Source: an uncultured Oxalobacteraceae bacterium
Lineage (GTDB): Bacteria; Pseudomonadota; Gammaproteobacteria; Burkholderiales; Burkholderiaceae_D
Assembly (NCBI GenBank): GCA_966250375.1
Contig: CBINHE010000002.1
Location: forward strand, 7,961 to 71,960
Reading direction: 5' to 3'
DNA length: 64,000 nucleotides
A model generated the notes under the pieces. The model made no database searches. It was not told the origin of the DNA and saw only the letters and a list, made by a program, of their open reading frames with translations. This document shows, in pieces, positions 26,508 to 58,369 of the stretch; position 1 is the first letter of the stretch, and every line of letters starts with the position of its first letter. Both the position numbers and the translations under genes were made by a program.

Positions 26508-26631
26508 TAGAGCGGTTTGCGAATCAGTGTAAGGGGCCAATCTCGGGCCTGCGGTGCTCGGTGTACATCACGTACACGTGCGCTCCTCGGCCCGACCTCG
26601 GCTCCCTTGCACAGACCCGCAAACCGCTCTA
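26508..26631. mobile_element. MITE-like hairpin repeat, TAGAGCGG family, copy A1 (124 bp)
   Basis: Termini TAGAGCGGTTTGCG / CGCAAACCGCTCTA (14 bp perfect, imperfect out to about 27 bp). Internal gcggtgctcg-hairpin-gcgctcctcg...ccttgc module shared with the other copies. Confidence 0.65.
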
Positions 26632-32305: not shown

Positions 32306-32344
32306 CGCCCGGTAGCATTGCTTCAGGTATTCCACAAACAGTCG

Positions 32345-32540
32345 TTTATGGAATGAAATGGGAAGTCGGTGAGTTTTCTGAATAAGCGAACAAAACCGAC
32401 GCTGCCCCCGCAACGGTAATCGAGTAAAAAGGTTTGCAGTATGCCACTGTGCAATTCAATGCATGGGAAGGCGCAGACCCAGGGAAGCCCCGCAAGGGAA
32501 TCCCGCTCGTAAGCCCGGAGACCAGCCTGAAGCCATCGTA
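32345..32540 (+). promoter_or_regulatory. Cobalamin (AdoCbl) riboswitch
   Basis: GGGAAgtcGGTG...GCTGCCCCCGCAACGGTAA...GCCACTG...GGGAAGGC and B12 box AGCCCGGAGACCAGCCT (32512-32528). Located 5' of cbtB. Confidence 0.85.
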
Positions 32541-32717
32541 GAGTTTGTATCGCGGAGGGCGATTCAGACGGATTGCTATGCTACGCACCCGTCTTTTACT
32601 TCCTTCTTCCATGCAGGCTTGTTCACGCGTTTTGCGCGGTGATCGGCAATGGAGACGTCATCTCATTCCTGTTGTCATCGTGCCTTGAGTACTCTCTTCT
32701 TTCAGGAGGAATATCAC

Positions 32718-32915
32718 ATGTCGTCAATACCTGGTTTGCTCGATAACGTTGATTCACAGTCCCATTCGGCCACGTGGAAAGACAAAATACTGCCGGTAAT
32801 GCTTGCTACAAGCCTTGGGCTGGTGCTGCTTTATGGCGCGGCTTTCGCCGAGACGGCGGCGTTGCATAATGCCGCACATGATGGCCGTCATTCTGCCGGT
32901 TTTCCGTGCCACTGA
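32718..32915 (+). CDS. cbtB: Cobalt transporter subunit CbtB
   Basis: 65 aa, one TM segment, C-terminal HNAAHDGRHSAGFPCH signature. AGGAGGA ribosome-binding site before ATG 32718. Confidence 0.85.
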   Translation: MSSIPGLLDNVDSQSHSATWKDKILPVMLATSLGLVLLYGAAFAETAALHNAAHDGRHSAGFPCH

Positions 32916-32920
32916 CCCGC

Positions 32921-33646
32921 ATGGCAGGGATGTTTAATCTGGCGACATTCAGGCGGATTGTGTCCGCAGCGGCATTGGCGGGTATGTTGGCGGGCTTGTT
33001 GTTGACCGTTGTTCAGCAACTTCAGGTGAGCCAGATCATACTCAAGGCTGAAGTGTATGAGAACGCAGCGGCTGCCTCGCAACCTGCCCATGTCCATGCT
33101 TCTGTCGAGCAGGAGCATCACGAACATGAGCATCACGAGCATGAGGTCTGGCAACCTGCCAACGGTGTAGAGCGGACTTTGTTCACGGCCTTGGCGAATA
33201 TCAGTCTGGCCGTTGGCTTCGGTTTGCTGCTGGGAGCCGCCATCTGTCTGCGTGGTGAAGTCAGCGGATGGCGTGCCGGGCTGTTGTGGGGCGTGGCAGG
33301 GTACACGGTTTTTTTTGTGGCCCCTTCCTTGGGTTTATCCCCGGAAGTTCCTGGCACCGAAGCGGCTCCACTGGCTGACCGACAACTATGGTGGCTCATC
33401 ACTGTGGGCATGACGGCAAGTGGACTATCACTGCTGATTTTTGCTCGAACCTGGCAGGTCAAAATACTGGGAGCAATCTTGCTCGGCGTTCCACACCTGA
33501 TCGGTGCGCCGCAGCTGCAAGTTCACACTAACGCACCGCCTGTCGAATTGGCCCGCGCTTTCATCTATGCCACGGCTATTGCCAATGCGGTGTTCTGGCT
33601 CGCGCTTGGCAGTTTGATGGGATTCTTTTACAAGAAATTCGCCTAG
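32921..33646 (+). CDS. cbtA: Cobalt transporter subunit CbtA
   Basis: Polytopic protein with His-rich loop EQEHHEHEHHEHE. Follows cbtB. The start is uncertain (GTG 32906, ATG 32921 or ATG 32930). Stop TAG 33644-33646 lies inside the repeat terminus. Confidence 0.85.
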   Translation: MAGMFNLATFRRIVSAAALAGMLAGLLLTVVQQLQVSQIILKAEVYENAAAASQPAHVHASVEQEHHEHEHHEHEVWQPANGVERTLFTALANISLAVGFGLLLGAAICLRGEVSGWRAGLLWGVAGYTVFFVAPSLGLSPEVPGTEAAPLADRQLWWLITVGMTASGLSLLIFARTWQVKILGAILLGVPHLIGAPQLQVHTNAPPVELARAFIYATAIANAVFWLALGSLMGFFYKKFA

Positions 33647-33881
33647 TGGTCAGTCAGGTTGAAACGGCGGGAAAGAAATCGATGGATTTTTTCGTCTGGC
33701 AAGGGTGTAGCAGGGGTTTCGCGCAGCATGCTGCGCGCCTGCGGAACAGTATCGGCTTGCAAGCCGATACGCGCCCTGCAAGGGCGAGGAGGCGCATAGC
33801 GAGCTATGCAACGACGAGCAACGCAGCCAGGCGGAAAAAGACGCGATTTATTCCCGTCGTTTCAGCCTGACTGACCACTAG
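33643..33881. mobile_element. MITE-like hairpin repeat, copy B1 (239 bp)
   Basis: 31-nt terminal inverted repeats (33643-33673 / 33851-33881, 2 mismatches). About 174-nt core that is about 88% identical (hand alignment) to the reverse complement of 55236-55411. Confidence 0.7.
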
Positions 33882-33980
33882 TCATCGTACTTGGCAGGGA
33901 GGGGCGTGGGGGCGTTACACGGGCAGTTTACGTGGCTCCATTCGCTTAAGTTGATCGCTCCGGCGTGAATAAAAAATATT

Positions 33981-34319
33981 ATGAGAACTCACACCAGACA
34001 CGTATTCATGTGCGTCGGCCCGCGCTGCACCGAAGATGGCATAAAGGCGCAAGCCATGTTCGAATTGATGGGAGAGAAGATCGATGCCCGTCCAGAGCTG
34101 CGGATCAAACGCACCAGAACCCATTGCATGGTCGCATGCCGGAATCAAGGGCCGATTCTCGTGGTGTATCCCGAAGGCGTATGGTATCGCTGCGATAACG
34201 AAACAGCATTGGAGCGGATCGTCGTCGAACATCTGGTCGGTGGGCGTGAAGTGGGCGAATTGATTTTCCATCGTCTGGGTGAAGGCGACATCTGCGCAGT
34301 GGAAAACGGCGATGCGTGA
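33981..34319 (+). CDS. Thioredoxin-like [2Fe-2S] ferredoxin-domain protein
   Basis: Cys pattern CVGPRC...C..C(R)NQGP, then VVYPEGVWY. Stop overlaps the cobN start (ATGCGTGA). No obvious SD, so the start is uncertain. Confidence 0.7.
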
Positions 34320-37300
34320 AATGAACGCGGCGGGTGCGCGCATCGCGCTGTTGACGCATGCCCCGAATGACCTGACGGTGCTGCACAGCGCGCTGGCCCA
34401 ACTGCCGCAAGAATTCCCGCCGGTGACCGGCGTCAACCTGCAGGCACTTGAAAGTGAAGTGCAGATGGCGGCGCTGCTGGCACATGAACTCGCTGCGGCC
34501 CGGATCATCATCTTGCGCGTATTGGGACGCCTCGGCAGCGTGCCGGGTTTTGCCGAGTTAATAGGCCAAGCCCGGAAGCAGGGACGGCATTTGATCGTCA
34601 TCAGCGGTACCGGAGAACCCGATCCGGAATTGGTGGCGGTGTCCACCGTTTCCTCCGGCGTGCTGCAGCAGGCTCTGACCTATTTTCAGGCCGGCGGCAG
34701 CATCAATCTGGCACAACTGTTGCGCTATTTGTCCGACCATCTTTTGCTGACCGGCTTCGGCTTCGAGCCGGCGCTGGCTTTGCCCGAGCATGGACTGTAT
34801 CACCCCGACTTGCCCCAAGGCGCCGGCATCGACGACTGGCTGGATCAGCGCGTGCCGCAGCAGCCGAGTGTCGGTATCGTTTTCTACCGGGCTCACTGGA
34901 TGAGCGGCAATACGCGCTTCGTTGATGCGCTGGTTGATGCACTGGAAAAGCGCGGCATGAATGTGCTGCCGGTATTCACCTCGTCACTCCGTGCCGGAGG
35001 CGATGGCGGCGCGCAATTGCCGACGGCGCTGCGCCATTTCAGCGAGGAAGTCAACGGCAAAACGCGCGCGCTTATCGATGTGCTTATCAACACGACTTCG
35101 TTTGCCATGGGTGAAATCACGCCTGGCGGGCCGACCCCGGCAGGCTGGTCAGTCGGTGTGCTGGAGCGACTCAATGTGCCGGTGCTGCAAGCCATGACCA
35201 GCGGCATGATGCTGGGGCAGTGGCAGCAATCGGCGCGCGGCATGAACCCGCTCGACGCCGCGATGAACGTGGTGTTGCCGGAGTTCGACGGGCGCATCAT
35301 CACCGTCCCTGTGTCGTTCAAGACGCGGGCCGCCGGCATGTCTAACGAGACGGTCGAATACGAGCCGCTGTCCGATCGCGTGGCGCGCGTGGCAGGTCTC
35401 GCGGCGCGTTTCGCGCGGCTGAAACGGCTGCCCAATGCGGACAAGCGCGTGGCCTTTATTTTTACCAATTCCAACAGCAAGGCATCGCAAATCGGCAATG
35501 CAGTTGGCCTCGACGCGCCGGCATCGCTGATGCGCATCCTGTGCGCGATGCGCGACGCCGGTTATCGCATCGACCAGTTGCCCGAAGACGGCACCGCGCT
35601 GATTCATGCGTTGATTGACCGCTGCGCCTACGACAATACCTGGCTTAGCGCCGAGCAGTTGACGCACGCGGTCGGACGCGTGCCGGCGGCGCAGTACGCG
35701 GCGTGGTTTGACGATTTGCCGCTGGAGATGCAGGAGAAAATGGCGGCGCAATGGGGGCCGCCGCCGGGCGTAGCCTATGTGCATGATGATCATCTGGCGC
35801 TGGCTGGCATTGAGCTGGGCAATGCCTTCGTTGCGCTGCAACCACCGCGCGGTTACGGCATGGACCCGGATGCGATCTATCACCAGCCCGATCTGCCGCC
35901 GACCCACCATTATTACGCGCTATATCGCTGGTTACGGGATGAGTGGCGCGCTGACGCCATCGTTCATGTCGGCAAGCACGGCACGCTCGAATGGCTGCCA
36001 GGCAAGGGCGTGGGCCTGTCGGGAAACTGTTTTCCGGATGCGCTGCTGGCGGATATGCCTCTGTTTTATCCCTTCATCATCAATGACCCTGGCGAGGGTG
36101 CGCAGGCCAAGCGCCGCGCCCATGCCGTCGTCGTCGATCACCTGACGCCGCCGATGACCACCGCCGACACCTATGGCGCGCTGGCCCAGTTGACTCAACT
36201 GGTGGACGAGTACTATCAGGTGGAAGTGCTCGATCCGGCCAAGCTGCCGTTGTTGCAGCAGCAGATATGGGAGCTGGTGAAGGAGACCAATCTGGATGCG
36301 GATCTGCAGGCCAGACTGCTGCATCATGACCATGATCACCATGATCATCACGACCACCACGATCATGACCACGATGATCACGCCCATTTCCATGGCCACG
36401 ATCACAAACACGATCACGATCATCAGCATGGCCACGACCACGACGATCATGACCATGACGACGAAATTCCCGCCGCACTGGCAAACATGGACGGAGCCGA
36501 TGTCGCCCATCTGATCGAGGATCTCGACGGTTATTTGTGCGAGTTAGGCGCGGCGCAGATCCGCGACGGCTTGCACATTCTTGGCCAAGCGCCCGAAAAC
36601 GAGCAACTGGTTGACATGCTGGTGTCCCTTACGCGTCTGCCGAATCAGGATATCCCTGGTTTGCAGGCGGAAGTAGCCCGGCTGTTCGGGTTGAAAATCG
36701 ACATGCTGCTGGAGCACAAGGGCCGTCGTTTGAATGTTGTCAGTGCTCTGGCTCGCCTGGCTGAACGACCGGTCGTGACACGAGCCGATGCGCTGGAGGC
36801 GATCGATGTGTTGTGCCGCAAACTGTTCGTCGAACTGCATGCGCGCGGTCATCTTGCATCATGTATAGACGAGGTGCTGGATCTGGTTTTTGGCGGACTT
36901 GACGCCGATGGTAGTGCAGTCAACCAGCCGCTTTTACAACCTGCGCTTCGTGCGCGCAGTAGCGTATTTTCGCAAGTGAAAAAGCCGCGTGTACAAGAGA
37001 GTGCCGTCCGCACGATGCCGGTCAAGGCCGTCCATCAAGATGCGTCGGCAGATACCGAAATTTGCTATGACGGTTTGCGTCGCATACTCGGTTTTGCCTG
37101 CCGCGAGCTGGCGCCGAATCTGGCGCGCGCTTCGGACGAGATTGACAACCTGTTGAGCGGGCTGGCCGGCGGTTATGTGCCGGCGGGACCGAGCGGCTCG
37201 CCGACGCGCGGCATGGCGCATATCCTGCCGACCGGGCGCAATTTCTACTCGGTCGATCCGCGCAGCGTGCCGTCGCAGTCGGCCTGGCGCGTCGGATCGC

Positions 37301-52963: not shown

Positions 52964-53038
52964 TGGTCCCGCCGACAGGAATCGAACCTGTATCTAGCGC
53001 TTAGGAGGCACTTGTTCTATCCATTGAACTACGGCGAG
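52964..53038 (-). tRNA. tRNA-Arg (anticodon CCU)
   Basis: Hand-folded 75-nt cloverleaf: CTCGCCG-TA-GTTC-AATGGATA-GAAC-A-AGTGC-CTCCTAA-GCGCT-AGAT-ACAGG-TTCGATT-CCTGT-CGGCGGG-A-CCA. CCA is encoded. Confidence 0.9.
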
Positions 53039-55139: not shown

Positions 55140-55465
55140 TAGAGCGGATTGCAAATCACAGTAGGCTGCGCCCCGCGCACCGATACCGTCGCAAGAGCAC
55201 TACCTTATACCAATCTGCAGCCATAACGTGACATTAAATCGCGTCTTTTTTCGCCTGGCTGCGTTGCTCGTCGTTGCCATAGCTCGCTATGGCGCGTCCT
55301 CTCCCTTGCAGGGCGCGTCTGCGCTTGCAAGCGCAGACCGTTACGCAGGCGGACAGTATGCTGTCCGAATTCCCTGCTACACCCTTGCCAGCCGAAAAAA
55401 TCCATCGATTTCATTGTCACGTTATGGCTGCAGATTGGTATTACATCGGAGCGCAAACCGCTCTA
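55140..55465. mobile_element. Composite repeat: TAGAGCGG-family copy A3 interrupted by copy B2
   Basis: Outer termini TAGAGCGGATTGC / GCAAACCGCTCTA. The inner element occupies 55207-55441. Confidence 0.6.
55207..55441. mobile_element. MITE-like hairpin repeat, copy B2 (235 bp, inverted relative to B1)
   Basis: 27-bp perfect terminal inverted repeat ATACCAATCTGCAGCCATAACGTGACA. Core 55236-55411 is homologous to 33676-33849. Confidence 0.7.
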
Positions 55466-56332
55466 ATTCAAGCGCTTGATTGCATCGCGCAACTCCGGCA
55501 ATTTGTCGCGCAACGCCGCCGCATCCGCCGCATACGGCCGCTCTGACAGGTAATCCTCGAGATCCTGCAAGGCGGCTTGCGGGCATTCCATATTTGCATA
55601 CGCCAGTCCGCGGTCGCGTCGCTCGATGATTTCATCCGGCAGCAGAATGACCATCCGCTCTTGCACGCTTAGCAAGTGCTCCCATTGATGGCGTTCCTGG
55701 AACAGCGCTTTCAGGTTGCGCAGCATGCGCACCAGAATTTCACGCGGTTGCGCTTCCTGCAAATAGGCCGCCAGCATTGCTTCCGCCGGGTACTCCTGCT
55801 GCTCAAGAAAAGACCCCAGACGTTCTTCCAGATCCTCACGCGACAAACTCGCGCCATTGAATGGGTCCAGAATGATATCGCCGGATTGCACGGACAATTT
55901 CATCAGAAAGTGGCCGGGAAAAGAAACGCCTTTGATGTTCAAGCCTATTTGTTCCGCCAGCTCCATGTACACGACAGCAAGTGAAATGGGGATGCCGCGC
56001 CGCGTGCTGATTACGCAATGCAGGTAGCTGTTGTCGGGCGTGTAGTAGTCGTTGATGTTGCCTGCGAAACCGAGCTCACGGTAAAAGAAATGATTCAGCA
56101 TCCGCAATTTTTGGATCGATGATGCATCGGATGGCAAGCGGCGCAGCAGTCGCGCTGCCAGAATATCGATTTCGGCTTGCGGTGCGCCCATGTCGAGTTG
56201 CGGGTTGCTACCTTGCGCAATAGCCAATGCGGCTTCAAACAACGGGATGCAATCATCCTGTTGCACCAGCGAAGTGAAATAGTCAAGGGAATTAATCATC
56301 ATATCGTGTTCATCATATAACCATGATGTCAC
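55463..56332 (-). CDS. SirB1/YchA-like protein (transglutaminase-like N-terminal domain plus TPR)
   Basis: 289 aa with the domain pattern of the SirB1 family. Stop codon TAG (55465-55463) coincides with the repeat terminus. Confidence 0.7.
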   Translation of the reverse strand: MTSWLYDEHDMMINSLDYFTSLVQQDDCIPLFEAALAIAQGSNPQLDMGAPQAEIDILAARLLRRLPSDASSIQKLRMLNHFFYRELGFAGNINDYYTPDNSYLHCVISTRRGIPISLAVVYMELAEQIGLNIKGVSFPGHFLMKLSVQSGDIILDPFNGASLSREDLEERLGSFLEQQEYPAEAMLAAYLQEAQPREILVRMLRNLKALFQERHQWEHLLSVQERMVILLPDEIIERRDRGLAYANMECPQAALQDLEDYLSERPYAADAAALRDKLPELRDAIKRLN

Positions 56333-58207: not shown

Positions 58208-58369
58208 TAGAGCGGTTTTCGTATGAGTGTGCGGGTGCTGCGGGCCGCTTTGGAGCGCATTGCGGCGTTGCTCGTCGCTTGTGTGGCTCGCCACACGGCG
58301 CTCCTCGCGCCTTGCCCTGGACCCCAAATCAACCCGCAGCACCCGCACACTCATACGAAAACCGCTCTA
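58208..58369. mobile_element. MITE-like hairpin repeat, TAGAGCGG family, copy A2 (162 bp)
   Basis: Perfect 37-bp terminal inverted repeat (58208-58244 / 58333-58369). Internal gcgttgctcgtcg-hairpin-ggcgctcctcgcgccttgc module. Confidence 0.7.

What the first reader, a model, noticed from the sequence alone, without database searches (positions are those of the whole stretch)
33643..33881. Hairpin repeat inserted inside the B12-riboswitch operon, exactly on the cbtA stop codon
The 239-bp element separates the cobalt importer genes cbtBA from the ferredoxin-cobN biosynthetic genes. This is the only large gap (334 nt) in an otherwise overlapping 17-gene operon. Its first three bases, TAG (33644-33646), are the cbtA stop codon. 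The two mismatches in its 31-nt terminal stem would be G:U pairs in the sense-strand RNA and A:C in the antisense RNA, which suggests the fold matters in the operon transcript. A stem-loop of about 240 nt here could act as a processing site, a partial terminator or an mRNA stabiliser. That would give transporter and biosynthetic genes different stoichiometry under the same riboswitch.
Basis: partly seen in the sequence, partly recalled or inferred. Interest (0 to 1): 0.65.

Follow-up and report, generated by a model that had tools for sequence, protein, structure and literature searches.

The report
Correia-like mobile hairpin in B12 operon
The 239-base hairpin after the cobalt-transporter gene is a small non-coding mobile element (a MITE distantly related to the Correia elements of Neisseria) that jumped into the TA of the gene's stop codon; it belongs to a large family, not found in the databases and papers searched, whose conserved core is shaped to fold in one strand only.

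Summary
A 31-nt terminal inverted repeat (29/31) encloses a 239-nt near-perfect foldback that starts on the cbtA stop codon, downstream of a cobalamin riboswitch.

It is not an operon-specific device. A relative with 93% identical CbtA has the empty site AAATTCGC-CTAG-TCATCG. The window differs from it by a precise 235-bp insertion: a 233-bp element plus a duplicated TA. The stop-codon coincidence follows from the element's TA/CTAG target preference.

Most hits are copies, from Acidobacteriota, Beta/Gammaproteobacteria, Desulfobacterota, Myxococcota and Acidimicrobiia. They are 157-170 bp, have TA or TNA duplications and lineage-specific arms, and share an almost invariant asymmetric core (AAGGCGCGAGGAG-hairpin-CGACGAGCAACGC). 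A covariance model of that core picks Neisseria Correia elements as its best hits in Neisseria DNA.

- 131 G:U against 28 A:C mismatches in the arms.
- The sense RNA fold is more stable in 38 of 38 elements.
- In co-directional gene contexts, 19 copies are sense and 7 antisense.

There is no terminator signature. Co-transcription as a long hairpin that RNase III could cut, or that could stabilise the upstream mRNA, is plausible but untested. The element is a new member of a known kind, and its family is interesting.

The parts
32308..32544 (+). Cobalamin riboswitch upstream of cbtB-cbtA (context)
   Evidence: RF00174, 113.8 bits, E 9e-28
32906..33646 (+). cbtA. Its stop codon TAG (33644-33646) consists of the left TA duplication plus the first G of the element.
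   Evidence: ORF; PF09490 CbtA homologues; the empty site in L148 also reads ...TTCGCCTAG
33644..33645 (.). Left copy of the TA target-site duplication. The context is CTAG, so a 4-bp duplication cannot be excluded from this copy alone.
   Evidence: The alignment with the empty site shows a 235-bp insertion (233 + 2). Other copies have TA without the flanking C and G.
33646..33878 (+). Body of the MITE (233 bp). The sense strand is the + strand.
33646..33673 (+). 5' terminal arm (TIR, GTGGTCAGTCAGGTTGAAACGGCGGGAA). It pairs with 33851-33878.
   Evidence: Nearly the same TIR occurs in the Noviherbaspirillum MAG copies L076 and L105 and in an unrelated 117-bp MITE in L156.
33851..33878 (+). 3' terminal arm (TIR), with two G:U wobble positions against the 5' arm
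33674..33700 (+). Inner 5' arm (AGAAATCGATGGATTTTTTCGTCTGGC). It is conserved in copy B and in betaproteobacterial relatives and pairs with 33826-33850.
33701..33779 (+). Extra module of about 79 nt with two hairpins, inserted at the 5' side of the core and bounded by an AAGGG repeat. It is absent from the basal 157-170-bp relatives. It is shared with copy B and with four sites on the Cupriavidus metallidurans CH34 megaplasmid. Both hairpin stems show compensatory changes.
33780..33824 (+). Conserved asymmetric core: 5' motif AAGGGCGAGGAG (33780-33791), apical hairpin (33795-33808) and 3' motif CGACGAGCAACGC (33812-33824)
   Evidence: CM R1 hit at 33766-33843, 49 bits, E 4e-10; nhmmer E 1e-9; covariation in the family alignment
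33826..33850 (+). Inner 3' arm (GCCAGGCGGAAAAAGACGCGATTTA)
33879..33880 (.). Right copy of the TA target-site duplication
55210..55438 (-). Copy B. Its interior is 85-98% identical to copy A, but its 31-nt terminal arms are unrelated in sequence (CCAATCTGCAG...) and still self-complementary. It is flanked by TA and nested inside another foldback element. It lies downstream of the - strand gene 55463-56332, in the sense orientation.
   Evidence: I1, I3, I4; 39 bits
58210..58367 (-). Basal-size (158 bp) family member with a third TIR type (GAGCGGTTTTCG...), flanked by TA. It lies between two - strand genes, in the sense orientation.
   Evidence: I2; 70.8 bits, E 1e-15
26510..26629 (-). 120-bp foldback with the GAGCGG TIR and a degenerate core; a weak family match
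   Evidence: I8; 16.6 bits, E 0.076

Best explanation
The feature is a non-autonomous foldback transposable element (MITE) of 233 bp. It inserted into the TA of the CTAG that contains the cbtA stop codon and duplicated that TA. Because the element begins with G, the stop codon TAG is rebuilt and CbtA is unchanged.

The element belongs to a large, cross-phylum family with these traits:
- The basal size is 157-170 bp, with TA or TNA duplications.
- The terminal arms are specific to each lineage.
- An almost invariant, asymmetric core is predicted to form a helix with two tandem G.A motifs.
- The closest described relatives are the Correia/NEMIS elements of Neisseria.

Copy A carries an additional two-hairpin module of about 79 nt.

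Inference: because it lies inside the operon in the sense orientation, the element is transcribed with cbtBA and the cob genes and folds into a roughly 240-nt rod whose base is a 31-bp duplex. Such a duplex is a plausible RNase III substrate or a block to 3' exonucleases. The structure is G-rich, C-poor and tightly folded, so it should cause little Rho-dependent polarity. The insertion is therefore tolerated, and it may modestly uncouple the stability of the cbtBA segment from that of the downstream genes.

Shown: insertion, duplication, family membership, strand-specific structural constraint.
Inferred: co-transcription, RNase III or stabiliser action, and the kind of enzyme that moves it (a TA/TNA-duplicating DDE transposase of IS630 or IS5-group type supplied in trans).
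For: Insertion and duplication:
- L148 (CbtA 93% identical) reads AAGAAATTCGC-CTAG-TCATCGTACTTGGCAGGG. The window differs by exactly 235 bp.
- L149 and L151 also lack the element. Their cbtA-to-next-gene gaps are 102-177 nt, against 334 nt in the window.

Multicopy:
- The window holds three strong copies and one weak copy.
By my calculation about 4 hits are expected by chance.
- 77 hits also carry the upstream motif AAGGCGCGAGGAG, which the search pattern did not select for.

Duplications:
- TA in L021, L027, L048, L059, L118 and window copies B, 58210 and 26510.
- TAA/TAA, TTA/TTA or TAG/TAG in L049, L074, L081, L086, L091, L095, L110 and L112.

Structure:
- 81% of alignment cells are paired, against 68% in shuffles and 28-44% in slid controls.
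- The covariation score is 0.335 against 0.137, reached by 0 of 500 shuffles.

Strand specificity:
- 131 G:U against 28 A:C mismatches in the arms, p = 4e-17.
- The sense RNA fold is more stable in 38/38 elements, median difference -15.6 kcal/mol.
- The sense strand has G>C in 37/37 elements.
- In co-directional gene contexts, 19 copies are sense and 7 antisense, p = 0.03.

Link to Correia elements:
- CM R1, built without any Neisseria sequence, gives Correia elements as its two best hits in Neisseria prophage DNA. L122:13-97 is a full-length alignment at 22.7 bits, E 0.0024; L125 has E 0.0012.
- The C. metallidurans relative shares 95 nt at 80% identity with copy A (E 2e-14). It also shares a 31-nt stretch with 2 mismatches with a Correia core.

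Literature: Correia elements have a TA target, are 104-108 or 153-157 bp long, have a directional core, are cleaved by RNase III in mRNA, and have no known transposase (PMC2649163, PMC2229807).
Against: - No autonomous insertion sequence with matching ends was found, either in the loci held or by a metagenome scan with the TIR. The mobilising enzyme is therefore unknown.
- A sequence-only profile of the core did not detect Correia elements. The CM E-values are about 1e-3 and roughly calibrated, so homology with Correia is likely but not proven.
- There are no transcript data, so RNase III cleavage, stabilisation and any change in expression ratio are untested.
- The wobble bias is a property of the family consensus. 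A plain cut-and-paste dsDNA MITE does not obviously predict that.
Confidence: 0.85

Rival explanations
1. The hairpin is a dedicated regulatory RNA of the B12 operon (a processing site or stabiliser) that evolved, or is kept, to set different stoichiometry for the cobalt transporter and the biosynthetic enzymes under one riboswitch.
For: It is in the sense orientation inside the operon. Its fold is very stable. G:U wobbles preserve the sense fold. Correia elements are cleaved by RNase III in mRNA (PMC2649163).
Against: Relatives with the same operon lack the element. The same family lies next to unrelated genes in the window (MurJ, a transglutaminase-like protein, an ABC-F protein) and in many phyla. 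The G:U bias belongs to the family, not to this copy.
Confidence: 0.1
2. The element acts as an intrinsic (partial) terminator between cbtA and the downstream genes.
For: It contains a long GC-rich stem.
Against: No U-run follows the terminal stem or any internal hairpin on the + strand. The scan finds no terminator-like site in the element. The T6 run at 33688-33693 lies before its pairing partner, not after it.
Confidence: 0.04
3. The family does not move as double-stranded DNA by a classical DDE transposase. It moves through a single-stranded intermediate (ssDNA or RNA) of the sense strand, and the conserved core is the recognition structure.
For: The strand asymmetry is at the consensus level. 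The core is invariant across phyla while the TIRs are interchangeable. No transposase partner was found here, and none is known for Correia elements (PMC2649163).
Against: Short TA/TNA duplications and terminal inverted repeats are the signature of DDE cut-and-paste elements (RUP/IS630-Spn1 precedent, PMC2229807). The same TIR is found on a MITE without the core (L156). The sense strand shows no association with local GC skew (33:30), which argues weakly against a mechanism tied to lagging-strand ssDNA.
Confidence: 0.12
4. It is a REP/REPIN-type palindrome mobilised by a RAYT (REP-associated tyrosine transposase), or a chance palindrome.
For: It is an extragenic palindromic repeat that forms a long hairpin.
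Against: It has a target-site duplication and a precise empty site. At 233 bp with a non-palindromic conserved core, it does not have the REP-doublet form. The fold z-score is -14.8. The chance expectation for the arms is 0.
Confidence: 0.02

Closest known systems
Correia repeat-enclosed elements (CREE / NEMIS) of Neisseria
   Same: - A non-coding foldback element with terminal inverted repeats and a TA target duplication (occasionally CA, also seen here in L037).
- A similar basal size: 153-157 bp against 157-170 bp.
- A directional, non-palindromic core placed between the arms, with related motifs: AAGGCG(a)CGAAG ... apical hairpin ... GAG(g)CAACGC.
- The family CM aligns a short Correia element end to end.
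- A Cupriavidus intermediate shares segments with both.
- The sense strand folds better in Correia elements too.
- No known transposase.
- Correia hairpins in mRNA are RNase III substrates (PMC2649163).
   Different: - The terminal repeat sequence differs (GTGGTCAGTCAGG... against TATAGTGGATTAAC...).
- Copy A is 233 bp and carries an extra module of about 79 nt.
- An IHF site and end promoters were not tested or not found.
- The family is spread over several phyla, whereas Correia elements are described in Neisseria spp. (PMC2649163).
- Some subfamilies make 3-bp TNA duplications.
- The CM E-value is only about 2e-3, and a sequence-only profile finds nothing.
RUP (Streptococcus pneumoniae), mobilised by IS630-Spn1, and other TA-duplicating bacterial MITEs (ERIC etc.)
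   Same: Size of 100-200 bp, TA at the termini, transcripts that fold into long stem-loops, and a proposed trans-mobilisation by an IS630-type transposase (PMC2229807). ERIC elements alter the stability of the mRNAs they are inserted in (PMC10969869).
   Different: There is no sequence similarity. No parent insertion sequence has been identified here. RUP has no reported conserved functional core.
IS5-family (IS1031/ISL2/IS427 groups) and PIF/Harbinger-Tourist type elements
   Same: 3-bp TNA (TAA/TTA) duplications and ends that start with GGG/GGC, seen in several subfamilies. The assignment rests on my recollection of the ISfinder group definitions.
   Different: No transposase gene with matching ends was found. 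Copy A's subfamily duplicates TA in a CTAG context, which is more typical of IS630.
BRE (beta-proteobacterial repeat element, Bordetella; PMC3110155)
   Same: A small GC-rich repeat in betaproteobacterial intergenic regions, and it is transcribed.
   Different: The sequence is different (read from the paper's supplement). BRE is arranged in tandem arrays, and neither TIRs nor duplications are described for it.

Membership tests
MITE (miniature inverted-repeat transposable element) | Small size (about 100-300 bp) and no coding capacity | tested here: met
   The body is 233 bp. The only ORF inside it (33646-33870, 74 aa) is not conserved: relatives have stop codons or indels across that region.
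MITE (miniature inverted-repeat transposable element) | Terminal inverted repeats | tested here: met
   29 of 31 positions are complementary.
MITE (miniature inverted-repeat transposable element) | Target-site duplication and an empty site in relatives | tested here: met
   TA is duplicated, and L148 has the exact empty site.
MITE (miniature inverted-repeat transposable element) | Many dispersed copies | tested here: met
   3-4 copies in 64 kb.
MITE (miniature inverted-repeat transposable element) | An autonomous insertion sequence with the same ends | tested here: not met
   None was found in the loci held or in the metagenome TIR scan. Whole genomes could not be searched.
Correia / CREE / NEMIS | The 26-bp Correia repeat TATAGTGGATTAAC/A... 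at both ends | tested here: not met
   Copy A's ends read GTGGTCAGTCAGGTTGAA. Only TA + GTGG is shared.
Correia / CREE / NEMIS | TA target duplication | tested here: met
   PMC2649163.
Correia / CREE / NEMIS | A characteristic directional core | tested here: inconclusive
   The CM of this family aligns Correia elements at E 0.0012-0.0024, and they are its best hits. A bridging Cupriavidus element exists. nhmmer finds nothing.
Correia / CREE / NEMIS | An IHF-binding site in the long form, and promoters at the ends | tested here: not met
   There is no sigma-70-like site in or at the element. IHF binding was not examined.
Correia / CREE / NEMIS | RNase III cleavage of the hairpin in mRNA | not testable with these tools
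   A 31-bp duplex at the base of the fold is long enough in principle.
Intrinsic terminator | A GC-rich stem followed by a U-run | tested here: not met
   and direct reading of 33878-33900.
Any Rfam RNA family | A covariance-model match | tested here: not met
   No hit on the element at gathering score or at E<=10. No hit on six relatives or on a Correia element at E<=1.
REP / REPIN | A short REP palindrome doublet, no duplication, and an associated RAYT | tested here: not met
   A duplication is present, and the core is a long asymmetric one. A RAYT was not searched for.

The most novel reading that the evidence does not exclude
The element is one copy of a cross-phylum superfamily of Correia-like foldback elements that I found neither in Rfam nor in the papers searched.

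Its asymmetric core of about 45 nt is a functional single-stranded module. The core reads AAGGCGCGAGGAG / CGACGAGCAACGC, is predicted to stack two tandem G.A motifs, and has an optional expansion site. It is carried by interchangeable transposon ends.

One strand is selected to fold:
- G:U 131 against A:C 28.
- The sense fold wins in 38/38 elements.
- The sense strand has G>C in 37/37 elements.

The core would be either an RNA element that a conserved host factor recognises (an RNase, or a factor controlling 3'-end stability or polarity) or the recognition structure of a still unknown single-strand mobilisation mechanism. The latter could also explain why no transposase has ever been found for Correia elements.
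Probability: 0.3. Interest if true: 0.75.

Novelty: new member of a known kind. Interest (0 to 1): 0.5.

Why it matters
For this locus: the 'odd gap' in the cob operon is a recent transposon insertion, not part of B12 regulation. Annotators and anyone modelling the operon should treat it that way. It is still a natural experiment, because a close relative lacks the element. That allows a test of how a 240-nt hairpin inside a riboswitch-controlled polycistron changes the relative expression of upstream and downstream genes.

For the field: Correia elements have been studied for decades as Neisseria elements with no known mobilising enzyme. A large family of relatives in soil and sediment bacteria offers two things:
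- Comparative power to find the co-occurring enzyme.
- A way to test whether the conserved core acts as RNA.

The family has an invariant core, interchangeable ends and a clear one-strand folding constraint.

Tried and rejected
- **Rfam.** No family matched at gathering score or at permissive thresholds, on the window, on six relatives or on a Correia element.
- **Literature search for the core motifs as text.** Only unrelated primers came up.
- **BRE repeat of Bordetella as a candidate identity.** Its sequences, read from the paper's supplement, are different.
- **Sequence-only profile (nhmmer) of the core against Neisseria loci and the Cupriavidus locus.** No significant hit. Only the structure-aware CM found Correia elements.
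- **Search for an autonomous parent.**
  - TIR pairs 0.4-5 kb apart in all loci: none real. The L006 match is a chance hit inside a gene.
  - Core halves separated by a long insert: none.
  - Metagenome scan with copy A's TIR: 10 loci. These were the source organism's own junction (L154), two further MITE-like elements that carry the TIR (L156, interior without the core; L157, which seems to carry a variant core in the opposite orientation), and chance or unresolved hits, one of them next to an ISAs1-like transposase (L153).
- **Plasmid collection.** Only the inner module matched, on the Cupriavidus metallidurans megaplasmid, which carries no annotation there.
- **Orientation relative to replication.** Local GC skew shows no association (33:30).
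- **'Upstream gene reads into the element' count (45:16).** I do not use it as orientation evidence, because it is confounded by a preference for gene 3' ends (convergent 15 against divergent 5). Only the co-directional 19:7 counts.
- **Coding reading.** A small ORF or a GAGGAG Shine-Dalgarno followed by ATG is not conserved across subfamilies.
- **Papers not held.** Two papers I wanted were not available: PMC2570305 and PMC3024310.
Full report
**1. The observation**

- The repeat finder reports arms at 33643-33673 and 33851-33881: 31 nt, 94% complementary, 177 nt apart.
- The arm sequence occurs only there in the window, with 0 matches expected by chance.
- As RNA, the + strand folds into a single rod-like hairpin of -148.5 kcal/mol (z = -14.8 against dinucleotide shuffles). 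The - strand reaches -120.3 kcal/mol (z = -10.7).
- The two arm mismatches are T.G and G.T on the + strand, so they are wobble pairs only in the sense RNA.
- TAG at 33644-33646 ends the 246-aa ORF 32906-33646. That ORF is CbtA (PF09490).
- CbtB, CobN, a ChlI/ChlD-like chelatase subunit and a precorrin-type methylase flank it.
- A cobalamin riboswitch lies at 32308-32544 (113.8 bits).
- The + strand genes from 32.6 to about 52 kb overlap or nearly abut, apart from the 334-nt gap that holds the element.

**2. It is an insertion, and the stop-codon coincidence comes from the target site**

I fetched the cbtA loci of close relatives and aligned the junctions.
- L148 (CbtA 93% identical) reads ...AAGAAATTCGC CTAG TCATCGTACTTGGCAGGG...
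- The window has the same sequence, interrupted by exactly 235 extra bases between the two CTAGs.
- L149 (85% identical) and L151 (Sulfuriferula plumbiphila, 83%) read CTAA there and also lack the element.
- In these relatives the gap from cbtA to the next gene is 102-177 nt, and the gene order cbtB-cbtA-small ORF-cobN is the same.

The mobile unit is therefore 33646-33878 (233 bp) plus a duplicated TA. Because CTAG is a palindrome, this copy alone cannot exclude a 4-bp duplication. The element starts with G, so TA + G rebuilds the TAG stop. The protein is unchanged and the stop codon existed before the insertion.

An independent metagenome contig (L154) carries the same filled junction and breaks off inside the element.

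**3. It is one of many copies**

Within the window:
- A second copy (55210-55438, opposite strand) shares the inner 177 nt at 85-98% identity. Its 31-nt terminal arms are unrelated in sequence yet still complementary to each other (I1, I3, I4). Two internal hairpins show compensatory changes between the two copies.
- Two further foldbacks with a third kind of end (TA|GAGCGGTTT...) lie at 58210-58367 and 26510-26629. The first of these carries the same central motifs.
- Copy B is itself nested at a TA inside another such element, and that element abuts the TAG stop of the - strand gene 55463-56332.

In public genomes:
By my arithmetic about 4 hits are expected by chance (596 Gb x 2 strands / 4^19).
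- 77 of the 123 matches also carry the motif AAGGCGCGAGGAG about 30 nt upstream. The pattern did not select for that motif. These matches are enclosed by long self-complementary arms.
- The host genomes, mostly metagenome-assembled genomes (MAGs), are Acidobacteriota (mostly Vicinamibacterales), Betaproteobacteria (Thiobacillus/Hydrogenophilales, Sulfuriferula, Gallionellaceae, Noviherbaspirillum, Polaromonas, Burkholderiales, Rhodocyclales), Gammaproteobacteria, Desulfobacterota, Myxococcota and Acidimicrobiia, with single hits in other phyla. Some single hits may be binning errors.
- Many hits lie at contig ends, as expected for a repeat.

**4. Anatomy of the family**

- Complete elements are 157-170 bp.
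- Subfamilies whose ends begin GTG..., GAGCGG, CCAATC or GGGCGTG are flanked by TA, often in a CTAG context. L118 and the window copies at 58210, 26510 and B have TA without the flanking C and G.
- Subfamilies beginning GGGTTCG, GGGCCCG or GTACTGCG are flanked by 3-nt direct repeats: TAA, TTA or TAG.
- 14 of 35 complete elements abut the stop codon of an ORF of at least 80 codons: 8 on the sense side and 6 on the other side. Landing on a stop codon is therefore a habit of the family and does not depend on orientation.

The centre is an 80-84-nt unit made of:
- a variable stem P1;
- the nearly invariant 5' strand AAGGCGCGAGGAG;
- a variable apical hairpin of 5-7 bp;
- the 3' strand CGACGAGCAACGC.

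RNAfold pairs the two conserved strands as isolated G-C pairs that separate 2x2 loops. Two of those loops are CGAG/CGAG-type tandem G.A motifs.

On 66 distinct cores:
- 81% of cells are paired, against 68% in shuffles and 28-44% when the partners are slid.
- The covariation score is 0.335 against 0.137, reached by 0 of 500 shuffles.
- The variable pairs show G-C/C-G/A-U/U-A exchanges.

Copies A and B carry an extra module of about 79 nt with two hairpins, at the 5' edge of the core (33701-33779). The same module occurs at four places on the Cupriavidus metallidurans CH34 megaplasmid, again with compensatory changes in both hairpins. Other relatives (L008, L029, L058) carry a different expansion at the same spot.

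**5. One strand is constrained to fold**

I oriented every element by its core and paired its arms outward from the core.
- The arms hold 131 G:T mismatches against 28 A:C. G:T exceeds A:C in 32 elements and the reverse holds in 3 (binomial p = 4e-17).
- In the core alignment the one-sided changes are C-G to U-G throughout (columns 6-78, 7-77, 9-75, 21-62).
- The sense RNA fold is more stable than the antisense fold in 38 of 38 elements, with a median difference of -15.6 kcal/mol. The same holds for two Correia elements.
- The sense strand has G>C and A>T in 37 of 37 elements.

The copies are not independent, because subfamilies share ancestry. The bias nevertheless recurs in every subfamily and phylum.

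G.T is also the mildest mismatch in DNA, so this result alone does not separate RNA from single-stranded DNA.

Two further tests lean towards RNA, though only weakly:
- With crude ORF and GC3-based gene calls, elements between co-directional genes are sense in 19 cases and antisense in 7 (p = 0.03).
- The sense strand shows no association with local GC skew (33:30).

The larger figure, 45:16 for 'the upstream gene reads into the element', is confounded by a preference for gene 3' ends (convergent 15 against divergent 5). I do not rely on it.

In the window, all three strong-core copies are sense to the gene upstream of them.

**6. What it is related to**

- No Rfam family matches the element, six relatives or a Correia element.
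- The Cupriavidus copy contains GCCGCAGACAGTACAAGTAGTACGGCAAGGC. I recognised this as the centre of the Neisseria Correia element.
- I fetched real Correia elements from Neisseria prophage contigs.
- A covariance model built only from the 66 non-Neisseria cores returns Correia elements as its two best hits in 73 kb of that DNA:
  - L122:13-97 at 22.7 bits, E 0.0024, aligned over the whole model as P1 / AAGGCGaCGAAG / apical hairpin / GAGgCAACGC / P1';
  - a mini Correia element in L125 at E 0.0012.
- The E-values are roughly calibrated, and a sequence-only profile finds nothing.
- A direct alignment shows 31 nt with 2 mismatches between the short Correia element and the Cupriavidus element, and the motifs GCAAGG and GCAACG are shared by all five sequences aligned.

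The literature describes Correia elements as follows (PMC2649163, PMC2229807, PMC10969869):
- 104-108 or 153-157 bp long, with inverted repeats;
- a TA target duplication, sometimes CA;
- a directional core;
- an IHF site in the long form, and promoters at the ends;
- hairpins in mRNA that RNase III binds or cleaves;
- no identified mobilising enzyme.

I therefore file this element as a distant relative of the Correia type. It is not a Correia element in the strict sense, because the defining 26-bp repeat is absent.

**7. How it most likely works here**

Shown:
- a recent insertion at TA, without damage to cbtA;
- the sense orientation inside the operon;
- an exceptionally stable sense-strand fold with a 31-bp duplex at its base;
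- no U-run after any stem, and no promoter-like site.

Inferred:
- The element is transcribed as part of the riboswitch-controlled polycistron.
- The basal duplex is long enough for RNase III. Alternatively, the folded rod blocks 3' exonucleases. Either effect could give the cbtBA segment a different half-life from the downstream cob genes.
- The sense RNA is C-poor and tightly folded, so it should be a poor Rho loading site. That would explain why sense insertions in operons are tolerated and why the family keeps the sense strand foldable.

The size and direction of any effect on expression are unknown. Relatives manage without the element.

**8. What remains unexplained**

- Three different terminal repeats carry the same core within one genome.
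- Conversely, copy A's terminal repeat is found on a 117-bp MITE with an unrelated interior (L156). Ends and core are therefore separable modules.
- The core is nearly invariant across phyla while the ends diverge completely.
- The folding bias is a property of the family consensus rather than of individual copies.
- No autonomous partner was found.

These points leave room for the more novel reading: the core is a functional single-stranded module, either an RNA recognised by a conserved host factor or the recognition structure of an unknown mobilisation pathway.

**9. Verdict**

The finding is real. Its specific interpretation as an operon device is largely replaced by 'a Correia-like MITE that inserted at the TA of the stop codon'. 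The locus itself is ordinary. The family it reveals is of moderate interest.

Noticed in passing
window 55143-55467 (outer element) and 55210-55438 (copy B): Copy B is nested at a TA inside another foldback element with TAGAGCGG-type ends. That outer element in turn abuts the TAG stop of the - strand gene 55463-56332 (a transglutaminase-like/TPR protein). This is a MITE inside a MITE at a stop codon, between convergent genes.
   Followed up: partly
window 58210-58367 and 26510-26629: Two more TA-flanked foldbacks with GAGCGGTTT ends. The first has the best core match in the window (70.8 bits). The second has a degenerate core (E 0.076) and lies antisense to its neighbouring genes. That makes at least five MITE-like elements in 64 kb.
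   Followed up: partly
window 36322-36470 (inside cobN) and about 33095-33147 (inside cbtA): His/Asp-rich low-complexity stretches ([20 protein letters not shown]... for about 50 aa in CobN). The repeat finder picked them up as a 9-nt-period family. They may be metal-binding inserts.
   Followed up: no
window 33981-34319: A 112-aa ORF between the element and cobN, conserved in position in relatives (87-112 aa). It has no Pfam match at E<=1e-5.
   Followed up: partly
L156 (metagenome contig Ga0315268_10147844), reverse-strand offsets 169-286: A 117-bp TA-flanked MITE with the same terminal repeat as copy A (GTGGTCAGTCAACTTGAAACG) but an unrelated interior that lacks the conserved core. This shows that ends and core are separable modules.
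   Followed up: partly
L121 (Cupriavidus metallidurans CH34 megaplasmid NC_007974.2, 1432692-1433586): A foldback element that combines copy A's extra two-hairpin module with an apical hairpin almost identical to that of Neisseria Correia elements. There are four such places on the replicon, and none is annotated.
   Followed up: partly
L114 and L080 (Rhodocyclales and Proteobacteria MAGs): Just downstream of the core there is an inverted, degenerate second copy of the core motif (…GCGTTGCGCTCGTCG…). These may be head-to-head element pairs or a two-core variant.
   Followed up: no
L153:863-2428: A match to copy A's terminal repeat lies about 110 nt upstream of an ISAs1-family-like transposase ORF (380 aa). 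It is probably a chance match, since about 7 were expected for that pattern. ISAs1 elements (as I recall) make 8-10-bp duplications.
   Followed up: no
window 52967-53038: A tRNA gene on the - strand (62.3 bits), just beyond the end of the cob gene cluster.
   Followed up: no
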